Positions 2,514 through 5,500 of a stretch of DNA of 64,000 bases are shown in pieces. Every line of letters starts with the position of its first letter. Position 1 is the first letter of the stretch. A program made the position numbers. The stretch lies in NCBI RefSeq assembly GCF_036507355.1, contig NZ_AP027877.1; one strand, given 5' to 3'. The DNA comes from Escherichia coli (GTDB lineage Bacteria; Pseudomonadota; Gammaproteobacteria; Enterobacterales; Enterobacteriaceae).

Positions 2514-5500
2514 TCAGCCCGCTTGCCTGCTCCAGCCGTGCGCAAATATCTTTAAAGTTAAAGGTATGCGGCCCCATCAATACCGGAATAGCGTGTGCAG
2601 CAGCTTCCAGCGGATTATGTCCACCGCGTTCAACCAGTGAACCGCCAACAAAGGCGAGATCGGCAATGCCGTACAGTAACATCAATTCGCCCATCGTATC
2701 GCCAACTACAACCTGCGTGCTGGCGGAAGGGACTTCCCCTGAAGAGCGTGTGATATAGCTTAGTCCAGCCTGGCGGACAAGGTTAATCGCGTCCGGAAAG
2801 CGTTCAGGATGACGAGGAACAAGAATGAGCAATAAATTCGGGAACTGTTGCAACAGTGCCTGATGGGCGGCAATCACTACGCTCTCTTCGCCATCATGAG
2901 TACTGGTGGCAATCCATACCGGACGATGTGGTGCCCACTGGCGGCGCAGCGTCACCGCTTTAGCAGCCAGTTGCGGTGTTACAGAGATATCGAATTTCAG
3001 GCTACCGGTAACGGTCACTTGATTGTTTTTTGCGCCCAGCGCCACAAAACGTGCACCATCTTCTTCATTTTGCGCAGCAATCAGCGTAATACGACGCAGC
3101 AAGCGGCGGACGAATTTACCCAGTTTGGCATAACCTGCGGCCGAGCGGGCAGAGAGTCGCGCGTTAGCGATCACCAGCGGAATTTTACGTTTATGTAGCG
3201 CCGCAATCAGGTTAGGCCATAGTTCGGTTTCCATAATCAACACCAGTTTAGGGTCGACTTTATTCAGGAAACGGTTGAGTGCATCGGGCAGATCATACGG
3301 CAGATAAACGTGCTGAACATCCTTCCCGAAAGCCGATTGTACGCGCTCCGAACCGGTTGGCGTCATGGTTGTTACGGTAATCGGTAAATCAGGATAACGA
3401 TGACGCAGCGCGCGCACCAACGGGATCGCCGCCAGAGTTTCACCGACGGAGACGGAGTGCAGCATAATGCCGCCTGGTTTTAGCGGATGGCGGTAAAAAC
3501 CGTAACGTTCACCCCAGCGTTTTCGATAGGCCGGAGCCTTACGTCCGCGCACCCAGAGCCGTATCCAGATCAGCGGCTGAATAAGGTAGAGAAGGGCGGT
3601 GTAAAGCAATTCGAGCATAGTAAATAGCTGACTTATGGATGTGCTGGGGATTCTATGTATTTAGCTGTGGCTTTACCATTACTTTTCCCGTTTTTGACTT
3701 AAATAGCAATTTACCCGCCAATTCTTGCTGAACATCTATACTTTTTTTGTATTTTTATGCGATTCATTGATTTCTGCTGTACGTGCAGGAAGGAATCGCA
3801 GAGCAACAGTGAAAGAATATGGTTGCTAATGATTATATTTGATTGATTTCTTTATTGAAAATCAACAATGTGCTTAAAAATCATTCGGGTCGGATTGCCG
3901 CGAAAGAAGTGATACACTAGCGCGTCAATATCAGTGCGGTATCAGTATTCAGGTAGCTGTTGAGCCTGGGGCGGTAGCGTGCTTTTTCTGCTTCACCTTA
4001 ATCGGATAATCTCAACAAAAAGAGTTACTTGTGGATAAGCCATTTCGAAGAATTTTGCTCATTAAGATGCGTTTTCATGGGGATATGTTATTAACTACTC
4101 CCGTCATTAGTTCGCTGAAAAAAAATTACCCTGACGCAAAAATCGATGTGCTGCTTTATCAGGACACCATCCCGATCCTGTCTGAAAATCCAGAGATTAA
4201 CGCGCTCTACGGCATAAAAAATAAAAAAGCAAAAGCCTCAGAAAAAATTACCAACTTTTTTCATCTCATCAAGGTATTACGTGCCAATAAGTATGACCTT
4301 ATCGTCAATCTTACCGATCAATGGATGGTTGCTATACTGGTTCGCTTATTAAATGCCCGTGTGAAAATTTCCCAGGATTATCATCATCGGCAGTCTGCTT
4401 TTTGGCGTAAAAGTTTCACCCATTTGGTGCCGTTGCAGGGTGGAAATGTGGTGGAAAGTAACTTATCCGTGCTGACACCATTGGGACTTGATTCGTTGGT
4501 GAAGCAGACAACCATGAGTTACCCGCCTGCAAGCTGGAAACGTATGCGTCGCGAACTTGATCACGCTGGTGTTGGTCAAAATTATGTGGTTATCCAACCT
4601 ACGGCGCGGCAAATCTTCAAATGCTGGGACAACGCCAAGTTTTCCGCTGTGATTGATGCCTTACATGCTCGTGGTTATGAAGTCGTTCTGACGTCCGGCC
4701 CAGATAAAGACGATCTGGCCTGCGTCAATGAAATTGCGCAGGGATGCCAGACGCCACCAGTAACGGCGCTGGCTGGAAAGGTGACCTTCCCGGAACTTGG
4801 TGCGTTAATCGATCATGCGCAGCTGTTTATTGGCGTTGATTCCGCACCGGCGCATATTGCCGCTGCAGTTAATACGCCGCTGATATCGCTGTTTGGTGCG
4901 ACAGACCATATTTTCTGGCGTCCCTGGTCAAATAACATGATTCAATTCTGGGCGGGAGATTACCGGGAAATGCCAACGCGCGATCAGCGTGACCGAAATG
5001 AGATGTATCTTTCGGTTATTCCGGCGGCAGATGTCATTGCTGCTGTCGATAAATTACTGCCCTCCTCCACGACAGGTACGTCGTTATGATCGTTGCTTTT
5101 TGTTTATATAAATATTTTCCCTTTGGCGGTTTGCAGCGCGATTTTATGCGTATTGCTCAGACAGTCGCCGCCCGAGGTCATCATGTTCGGGTTTATACCC
5201 AGTCGTGGGAAGGCGAATGCCCTGATGTATTTGAACTGATCAAAGTGCCGGTTAAATCGCATACCAATCACGGGCGCAATGCGGAGTATTTTGCCTGGGT
5301 GCAAAAACATTTACGCGAACATCCCGTCGATAAAGTCGTTGGATTCAACAAAATGCCGGGGCTGGACGTTTATTATGCCGCTGATGTTTGTTATGCCGAG
5401 AAAGTAGCGCAGGAAAAAGGCTTTTTCTATCGCCTGACGTCACGTTATCGCCATTATGCCGCCTTTGAGCGGGCAACCTTCGAACAGGGCAAGCCGACAC

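What the first reader, a model, noticed from the sequence alone, without database searches (positions are those of the whole stretch)
3940..3990. ops / JUMPStart element in the waaQ leader
An exact GGCGGTAGCGTG lies about 50 nt upstream of waaQ in the 412-bp divergent waaA-waaQ region, predicting RfaH-dependent antitermination of the long waaQ operon. No second ops copy was seen upstream of the hldD-waaFCL operon or the adhesin operon.
Basis: partly seen in the sequence, partly recalled or inferred. Interest (0 to 1): 0.3.

Follow-up and report, generated by a model that had tools for sequence, protein, structure and literature searches.

The report
Known RfaH ops/JUMPstart site before waaQ
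The motif is real: it is the well-known loading site for the anti-termination factor RfaH in the leader of the E. coli LPS-core operon waaQ, identical to the one studied in K-12, so this is an ordinary, correctly read feature.

Summary
Confirmed, and already known. An exact GGCGGTAGCGTG lies at 3970-3981 (+). It is the only such 12-mer in the window (0.007 expected). It forms the 3' end of a full 39-nt JUMPstart element at 3943-3981 (Rfam RF01707, 55.2 bits against a gathering score of 35, E 6e-10). The element sits in the 412-bp waaA/waaQ intergenic region, 49 nt before the waaQ GTG, on the coding (non-template) strand and outside any ORF.

The 39-mer is at least 99% identical in 4907 of 5426 complete E. 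coli genomes, including a K-12 strain (DH1) and an O157:H7 strain. In MG1655 this stretch is annotated as the sRNA rirA, and published 3'-end mapping puts abundant RNA ends at ops G10/U11, the RfaH-loading pause. The same element precedes waaQ homologues in many Enterobacterales, and its 5-bp stem shows covariation.

The other two GGCGGTAG 8-mers (30239-, 40924+) lie inside coding regions and occur at chance frequency. No JUMPstart or ops-like site lies upstream of hldD or of the adhesin gene.

The mechanism is ops-paused RNA polymerase recruiting RfaH, which then carries transcription and translation through the 7-kb waaQ operon, whose distal half is AT-rich. The only speculative extra is that the JUMPstart hairpin ends 12 nt before the pause, which is pause-hairpin geometry.

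The parts
3943..3981 (+). JUMPstart element (39 nt), with ops at its 3' end
   Evidence: Rfam RF01707 matches over its full length at 55.2 bits against a gathering score of 35. The 39-mer is at least 99% identical in 4907 of 5426 complete E. coli genomes.
3970..3981 (+). ops 12-mer GGCGGTAGCGTG: core GGCGGTAG at 3970-3977, pause dinucleotide TG at 3980-3981
   Evidence: It is an exact match and unique in the window. It is invariant in all four E. coli allele classes aligned.
3950..3968 (+). JUMPstart stem-loop: 5-bp stem 3950-3954 with 3964-3968, and a 9-nt loop
   Evidence: This is the Rfam consensus structure. 100% of cells pair across 31 waaQ leaders, and pair 3951:3967 appears as AU 17, UA 8, GU 4, GC 2. 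Across 120 JUMPstart loci that position forms a standard pair in 115.
3979..3980 (+). [quoted passage not shown]
   Evidence: Published MG1655 Term-seq 3' ends at 3808184 and 3808183 map to these two bases. The pause at U11 is described in PMC5995543 and PMC11001881.
3910..3918 (+). Extended -10-like TGATACACT (inferred waaQ/rirA promoter)
   Evidence: It is conserved in all four alleles. It lies 7 nt upstream of 3925, which aligns with the annotated 5' end of MG1655 rirA. This is an inference; the simple promoter scan did not call it.
3925..3996 (+). [quoted passage not shown]
   Evidence: MG1655 annotates ncRNA rirA b4760 at 3808166-3808238, and this aligns to the window. The biology is described in PMC5736990 and PMC8745692.
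3983..3987 (+). T-run just after ops
   Evidence: Read directly from the sequence. T is enriched after ops in waaQ-linked JUMPstarts: 5.8 against 3.7 T per 10 nt.
4020..4033 (+). Weak Shine-Dalgarno-like AAGAG (4020-4024) and the GTG start codon of waaQ (4031-4033)
   Evidence: RefSeq annotation of near-identical genomes starts rfaQ here. AAAAGAG-N6-GTG is conserved across genera.
4031..10972 (+). Seven-gene waaQ operon of R3-type layout (waaQ, waaG, waaP, waaO/I, waaY, a GT8 gene, a GlcNAc-transferase gene). The distal 4 kb is 30-37% GC.
   Evidence: ORFs and annotation of a 99.1%-identical genome. GC content per gene and gene junctions of -8 to +42 nt.
10971..11005 (.). 16-bp hairpin with T-runs, between the convergent last waaQ-operon gene and waaL; the likely operon end
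   Evidence: Terminator scan and sequence.
2341..3618 (-). waaA, transcribed divergently (context)

Best explanation
This is the canonical RfaH recruitment module of the E. coli LPS-core operon. Transcription starts about 3925 (inferred) and RNA polymerase transcribes the JUMPstart element. It then pauses at ops position U11 (window 3980). In the paused complex, the ops bases on the non-template (+) strand form a small DNA hairpin that RfaH reads. RfaH binds, its C-terminal domain is released and refolds, and RfaH stays on the polymerase. There it excludes NusG, suppresses backtracking, Rho-dependent termination and H-NS-promoted pausing, and recruits a ribosome to a message with poor ribosome-binding sites. 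This allows the whole roughly 7-kb waaQ operon to be expressed, including its AT-rich distal genes. The same 5' leader RNA also exists as the short sRNA RirA. Shown here: the sequence, position, strand, conservation and stem covariation. Taken from the literature on the identical K-12 and CFT073 sequence: RfaH binding, pausing, antitermination and RirA.
For: The 12-mer is exact and unique. Rfam JUMPstart matches full length at 55.2 bits. The element is non-coding, on the sense strand, 49 nt before the waaQ GTG. The 39-mer is at least 99% identical in 4907 of 5426 complete E. coli genomes, including K-12 DH1 and O157:H7, and has one mismatch in 496 more. It stays conserved while the centre of the intergenic region diverges. 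In 30 of the 120 JUMPstart pattern-match loci returned from a truncated scan of genome contigs (one genome per species), the element lies upstream of a waaQ homologue; these 30 loci come from many enterobacterial genera (Citrobacter, Kosakonia, Cedecea, Pluralibacter, Pectobacterium, Serratia, Brenneria and others). The stem shows covariation. MG1655 annotates rirA over the equivalent stretch. Term-seq 3' ends in MG1655 fall exactly on ops G10/U11 and are not flagged Rho-dependent. Literature: waaQ is the first gene of the RfaH-regulated waa operon (PMC5449661); RfaH ChIP-seq signal on rfa in CFT073, which is bound by H-NS (PMC9765446); the ops mechanism (PMC5995543, PMC11001881). The distal genes are 30-37% GC and lack obvious SD sequences.
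Against: Nothing in the sequence argues against it. RfaH dependence was not and cannot be measured for this strain with these tools. rfaH is not in the window (using a query sequence recalled from memory). The transcription start is inferred from the K-12 annotation, not measured here.
Confidence: 0.95

Rival explanations
1. The motif is a chance occurrence with no function.
For: The 8-mer core alone occurs 3 times against 1.4-1.9 expected.
Against: The 12-mer is expected 0.007 times. The 39-nt JUMPstart match has E 6e-10. It is near-invariant in 5402 E. coli genomes and occupies the same place relative to waaQ in many genera.
Confidence: 0.01
2. The element matters mainly as RNA. On this reading the 5' leader is the sRNA RirA, which titrates RfaH in trans, rather than a cis-acting DNA loading site.
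For: rirA is annotated over the equivalent K-12 stretch. [quoted passage not shown]
Against: Structural and genetic work shows that RfaH reads ops in the non-template DNA of the paused complex. The RirA phenotypes come from overexpression. The two roles are not mutually exclusive.
Confidence: 0.03
3. The leader also holds an RfaH-sensitive intrinsic attenuator. RNA 3933-3983 folds into a long imperfect hairpin that buries ops in its 3' arm and is followed by a U-run, so transcripts would terminate there unless RfaH is loaded, giving RirA.
For: The fold is -18.7 kcal/mol with z -1.9, and the K-12 allele folds better (-23.9, z -1.7). 88.5% of cells pair across 31 leaders, against 30-48% for slid controls. 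T is enriched after ops in waaQ leaders.
Against: The terminator scan found nothing here. RNAalifold keeps only the 5-bp JUMPstart stem. The structure was derived from this sequence, and most of its 3' arm is invariant ops, so the pair counts are biased. MG1655 Term-seq lists 3' ends at ops G10/U11 but none in the U-run or at the annotated RirA 3' end. Pectobacterium-type leaders lack the T-run.
Confidence: 0.08

Closest known systems
E. coli K-12 MG1655 waaQ (rfaQ) leader: ops/JUMPstart and sRNA rirA (b4760, 3808166-3808238)
   Same: The 39-nt JUMPstart and ops are identical. The position relative to waaA and waaQ is the same, as are the -10-like box, the inferred start site and the GTG start context.
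   Different: There are six substitutions in the first 15 nt of the RirA-equivalent. The T-run is one T shorter (5 against 6) and the spacer to the GTG is 49 nt against 47. The downstream outer-core genes are R3-type rather than K-12-type. The central part of the intergenic region is a different allele.
JUMPstart elements upstream of O-antigen, capsule and other polysaccharide clusters (Rfam RF01707; Hobbs and Reeves 1994, from memory)
   Same: The 39-nt architecture is the same: a CAGT box, a 5-bp stem-loop, then GGGCGGTAGCGTG at fixed spacing.
   Different: Most non-waaQ copies have a U-A pair at the variable stem position where E. coli waaQ has A-U. They have fewer T after ops and different downstream genes.
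ops elements of the hlyCABD, kps and F tra operons (RfaH regulon)
   Same: The same 12-nt RfaH-loading pause lies in a 5' leader, followed by a long, H-NS-bound, horizontally acquired type of operon (PMC9765446).
   Different: These were not examined here. Their distances to the first gene and their flanking sequences differ (from the literature).
his-leader hairpin-stabilised (class I) pause
   Same: A short nascent-RNA stem ends 11-12 nt upstream of the paused 3' end (PMC4227799). The JUMPstart stem ends at 3968, 12 nt before U11 at 3980.
   Different: The ops pause is described as hairpin-independent, pre-translocated or backtracked, and biochemically distinct from the his pause (PMC11001881). 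No experiment seen in the papers searched here tests the JUMPstart stem in this role.

Membership tests
ops (RfaH recruitment/pause element) | 12-nt consensus GGCGGTAGnnTG, with core GGCGGTAG and TG at positions 11-12 | tested here: met
   Exact GGCGGTAGCGTG at 3970-3981. The consensus is given in PMC12791035 and PMC5995543.
ops (RfaH recruitment/pause element) | Lies on the non-template strand in an untranslated 5' leader, not inside a translated ORF | tested here: met
   It is on the + strand, the same strand as waaQ, 49 nt upstream of the GTG, with no ORF of 20 aa or more over it. Its leader status follows from the rirA/waaQ 5' end at the 3925 equivalent.
ops (RfaH recruitment/pause element) | Followed by a long operon for envelope or surface components that is prone to polarity | tested here: met
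   A 6.9-kb, seven-gene LPS core operon whose distal genes are 30-37% GC and have weak ribosome-binding sites.
ops (RfaH recruitment/pause element) | RNAP pauses at U11 in vivo or in vitro | not testable with these tools
   Not measurable for this strain. For the identical K-12 sequence, Term-seq 3' ends map to G10/U11.
ops (RfaH recruitment/pause element) | RfaH binds there, and distal gene expression depends on rfaH | not testable with these tools
   Literature only: PMC5449661 and PMC9765446. rfaH is not within the window.
JUMPstart (Rfam RF01707) | Covariance-model score at or above the curated gathering score, matched over the full length | tested here: met
   55.2 bits against 35, model positions 1-38 of 38.
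JUMPstart (Rfam RF01707) | Conserved 5-bp stem-loop immediately 5' of ops | tested here: met
   All 155 cells pair in 31 waaQ leaders, and one pair shows AU/UA/GC/GU. 115 of 120 loci pair at that position. The other four pairs were fixed by the search pattern or are invariant, so they are uninformative.
JUMPstart (Rfam RF01707) | Located just upstream of a polysaccharide-synthesis gene cluster | tested here: met
   It lies upstream of waaQ, waaG, waaP and the rest of the operon.
RirA sRNA (b4760) | A 73-nt RNA that shares the waaQ transcription start and contains JUMPstart and ops | tested here: inconclusive
   The sequence equivalent, 3925-3996, aligns to MG1655 rirA with the 39-mer identical. 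The RNA ends in this strain are not measurable. MG1655 Term-seq lists no 3' end at the annotated RirA 3' end.
Intrinsic terminator/attenuator | A stable GC-rich hairpin immediately followed by a U-tract, with a mapped 3' end | tested here: inconclusive
   The hairpin is imperfect, at -18.7 kcal/mol and z -1.9, and is followed by U5. The terminator scan did not call it. There is no Term-seq 3' end in the U-run.

The most novel reading that the evidence does not exclude
The JUMPstart stem-loop, a 5-bp stem with a 9-nt loop at 3950-3968, is not just a conserved flank. It may be a nascent-RNA exit-channel hairpin placed to act on the ops pause. Its 3' base lies 12 nt upstream of the U11 pause end, which is the 11-12-nt geometry of hairpin-stabilised pauses. 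It could prolong the pause, limit backtracking so that ops stays exposed, or give NusA or the ribosome a handle. That would explain why polysaccharide operons conserve 39 nt rather than 12. The abundant in vivo 3' ends at G10/U11 would then reflect a hybrid hairpin-plus-consensus pause.
Probability: 0.25. Interest if true: 0.4.

Novelty: already known. Interest (0 to 1): 0.08.

Why it matters
As an annotation it matters only for completeness. It marks the waaQ operon of this R3-core E. coli as RfaH-dependent, which bears on LPS core integrity, serum and detergent resistance, and virulence. It also marks the stretch as the rirA locus. It adds nothing new to the biology of RfaH. The only open point it touches is the still-unexplained function of the non-ops part of JUMPstart. 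For that, the stem covariation and the 12-nt spacing to the pause site give a testable hypothesis.

Tried and rejected
(1) I looked for further functional ops copies. Two exact 8-mers exist at 30239 (-) and 40924 (+), but both are intragenic, both lack the TG pause dinucleotide, and their number is what chance predicts. RfaH is reported not to load at intragenic ops-like sites (PMC9765446). I rejected them.

(2) Rfam searches at E<=10 upstream of hldD and of the adhesin gene gave no JUMPstart match.

(3) A tblastn search of the window with RfaH, using a sequence recalled from memory, found nothing. This is expected, because rfaH maps elsewhere in E. coli.

(4) The sigma-70 scan gave one + strand candidate, TTGAAA-18-AATCAT at 3855-3884. 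That start would not fit the annotated rirA 5' end, and its -35 region is not conserved in the K-12 allele. I therefore prefer the extended -10-like TGATACACT at 3910-3918.

(5) I considered an extended hairpin plus U-run acting as an attenuator that generates RirA. Term-seq ends are at ops G10/U11 and none are in the U-run, and RNAalifold does not support the long stem. I kept this only as a low-probability rival.

(6) The primary RirA paper (Klein et al. 2016, PMC5087721) is not held. RirA facts therefore come from three reviews by the same group and from the MG1655 annotation.

(7) The constant ops-to-start spacing across genera (22 of 30 loci within 47-51 by tblastn extrapolation) was not pursued, because start codons in other genera were not verified.

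Full report
**Observation**

The sequence GGCGGTAGCGTG is present exactly as reported, at window 3970-3981 on the + strand. It is the only copy in the 64-kb window on either strand. All other sites have two or more mismatches, and base composition predicts 0.007 copies.

- The waaA ORF (2341-3618, - strand) and the waaQ ORF (GTG at 4031, + strand) leave an intergenic region of 3619-4030, which is 412 bp.
- ops ends 49 nt before the GTG.
- No ORF of 20 aa or more overlaps the element.

The 8-mer core alone would not be significant, with 3 copies against 1.4-1.9 expected. The case therefore rests on the 12-mer and its context.

**What it is**

Rfam's JUMPstart covariance model (RF01707) matches 3943-3981 (+) over its full length. 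The score is 55.2 bits against a gathering score of 35, with E 6.4e-10 for the whole window. The ops 12-mer is thus the 3' end of a complete 39-nt JUMPstart element. That element consists of a 5' CAGT box, a 5-bp stem (3950-3954 pairing with 3964-3968) with a 9-nt loop, one G, and then ops.

The window is E. coli chromosome. The waaA-waaQ stretch is 99.9% identical to that of an O145 strain, and the first 25 kb are 99.1% identical to several genomes. Downstream lies a seven-gene operon: waaQ, waaG, waaP, waaO/I, waaY, a GT8 transferase gene and a GlcNAc-transferase gene. waaL, waaC, waaF and hldD are on the opposite strand.

**Conservation**

- The 39-mer is at least 99% identical in 4907 of 5426 complete E. 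coli genomes, including a K-12 derivative (DH1) and O157:H7. Another 496 genomes carry one mismatch.
- In an alignment of four divergent allele classes of the intergenic region, the centre (about 3708-3870) is strongly diverged. The block from about 3870 to 3990, holding the promoter region, JUMPstart and ops, is almost invariant.
- Thirty of those loci lie directly upstream of a waaQ homologue, often with waaA divergent. In 22 of the 30, the extrapolated distance from the last ops base to the first base of the start codon is 47-51 nt.
- In the alignment of these 31 leaders every stem cell pairs. The one stem position the search pattern left free on both sides covaries: AU 17, UA 8, GU 4, GC 2, with 0 of 500 shuffles reaching the observed score. 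Over all 120 loci that position forms a standard pair in 115.
- The other four stem pairs are invariant or were fixed by the pattern, so they say nothing either way.

**Link to experimental knowledge**

MG1655 (NC_000913.3) annotates the ncRNA rirA (b4760) at 3808166-3808238, immediately upstream of waaQ. Aligned to the window, this corresponds to 3925-3996. That places the shared rirA/waaQ 5' end at window 3925, 7 nt downstream of a conserved extended -10-like TGATACACT at 3910-3918. The promoter assignment is my inference.

Reviews state four things (PMC6358824, PMC8745692, PMC5736990):
- the waaQ 5' UTR carries ops and JUMPstart;
- the operon requires RfaH;
- the operon lacks a canonical ribosome-binding site;

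PMC5449661 calls waaQ the first gene of the RfaH-regulated waa operon. PMC9765446 reports RfaH ChIP-seq signal on rfa in strain CFT073 and H-NS coating of that locus. It also reports that RfaH does not load at 22 intragenic ops-like sites.

The supplementary Term-seq tables of Adams et al. (bioRxiv 10.1101/2020.07.18.207399) list strong 'orphan' 3' ends at MG1655 3808184 and 3808183. The 3808184 row, the only one of the two shown with that column, is not flagged Rho-dependent. By the sequences printed in the table and by my own mapping, these are ops G10 and U11. They correspond to window 3979 and 3980, the position where RNAP pauses for RfaH loading (PMC5995543, PMC11001881).

**Mechanism**

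The steps below come from the literature on the identical sequence; I infer that they apply here.
1. RNAP starts near 3925, transcribes JUMPstart and pauses at U11.
2. The ops bases of the non-template strand form a small hairpin that RfaH reads.
3. RfaH's KOW domain is released and refolds, and RfaH remains bound to the polymerase.
4. Bound RfaH excludes NusG, opposes backtracking, Rho and H-NS-promoted pausing, and recruits a ribosome.

The local sequence fits this need. waaQ has only a weak AAGAG 6 nt before a GTG start. Several downstream genes have no recognisable Shine-Dalgarno sequence. The distal four genes are 30-37% GC. The operon ends at a 16-bp hairpin with flanking T-runs at 10971-11005, between the convergent last gene and waaL.

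- The other two exact 8-mers are intragenic. One (30239-30246, -) is on the sense strand in the lactate permease gene and is followed by GCCT. The other (40924-40931, +) is antisense in the mannitol-1-phosphate dehydrogenase gene.
- Neither has the TG pause dinucleotide.
- There is no 8-mer with one mismatch or fewer, and no JUMPstart match at E<=10, upstream of hldD or of the adhesin gene.

**Two extras I examined**

First, RNA 3933-3983 can fold into a longer imperfect hairpin that buries ops in its 3' arm and is followed by the T-run at 3983-3987 (-18.7 kcal/mol, z -1.9). This resembles an attenuator that could produce RirA. The evidence against it is as follows:
- the terminator scan does not call it;
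- RNAalifold keeps only the short JUMPstart stem;
- the pair counts are biased, because the structure was derived from this sequence and its 3' arm is invariant ops;
- MG1655 Term-seq shows ends at G10/U11, not in the U-run or at the annotated RirA 3' end.
I keep it as a low-probability rival.

Second, the JUMPstart stem ends at 3968, which is 12 nt upstream of the U11 pause end. That is the 11-12-nt spacing quoted for hairpin-stabilised pauses (PMC4227799). The ops pause is described as hairpin-independent and distinct from the his pause, but that work used scaffolds without JUMPstart. None of the RfaH/ops papers I searched discusses the JUMPstart stem in this role. This is the most novel reading the evidence does not exclude, and it is speculative.

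**Verdict**

The feature is already known: it is the textbook RfaH loading site of the waaQ operon, sequence-identical to the experimentally studied K-12 element and overlapping the annotated rirA. Interest is low.

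Noticed in passing
window 32198-37316 (- strand); indel near 36570: The trimeric autotransporter adhesin (ESPR signal, YadA head, stalk and anchor) is split into two overlapping ORFs in different frames: 36546-37316 (256 aa) and 32198-36586 (1462 aa). 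Compared with the intact gene of strain F9792, the window lacks 11 bp at about 36570, so the gene looks frameshifted (a pseudogene or an assembly error).
   Followed up: partly
window about 37481 (- strand ORF 37457-38032, DUF3251-type gene): There is a second 11-bp deletion relative to strain F9792, between the direct repeats GACATTAA, close to the 3' end of the gene upstream of the adhesin.
   Followed up: no
window about 3708-3870: The centre of the waaA-waaQ intergenic region exists in clearly different alleles among E. coli (83-84% overall identity to K-12-type genomes; 955 genomes fall in the 80-90% band). Both flanks, including the promoter/JUMPstart/ops block, stay conserved. This suggests a recombination mosaic.
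   Followed up: partly
window 3933-3987: An extended imperfect RNA hairpin (-18.7 kcal/mol, z -1.9) pairs the region upstream of JUMPstart with ops itself and is followed by a T-run. It looks like a terminator, but published 3'-end mapping does not support termination there.
   Followed up: yes
window 3979-3980 (MG1655 3808184 and 3808183): Published MG1655 Term-seq lists strong 'orphan' 3' ends exactly at ops G10/U11 but none at the annotated RirA 3' end (3808166). The dominant short leader RNA in vivo may therefore end at the pause site rather than 16-18 nt further on.
   Followed up: partly
loci L006-L120: The distance from the last ops base to the first base of the waaQ start codon, extrapolated from tblastn, is 47-51 nt in 22 of 30 loci from many genera. 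This includes Pectobacterium and Serratia, where the spacer sequence is unrelated. Start codons were not verified.
   Followed up: partly
L025, L030, L104, L112: Exact JUMPstart matches occur on short contigs labelled Arthrobacter sp., an Erysipelotrichia MAG, a Peptococcaceae MAG and 'uncultured Tenericutes'. These are most likely enterobacterial contamination or mis-binning rather than true occurrences outside Enterobacterales.
   Followed up: no
window 61601-61643 (+): Rfam match above the gathering score to ES036 (CssrF) sRNA: 46.1 bits against 37.6.
   Followed up: no
window 30239-30246 (-): An exact ops core GGCGGTAG lies on the sense strand inside the L-lactate permease gene, without the TG pause dinucleotide. 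It is expected to be non-functional, because RfaH is reported not to load at intragenic sites.
   Followed up: partly
window 7001-12500: GC content drops sharply to 28-40% over the outer-core genes and waaL. waaL lies at the distal end of the ops-less hldD-waaF-waaC-waaL operon, so an AT-rich distal gene there is expressed without an RfaH site.
   Followed up: no
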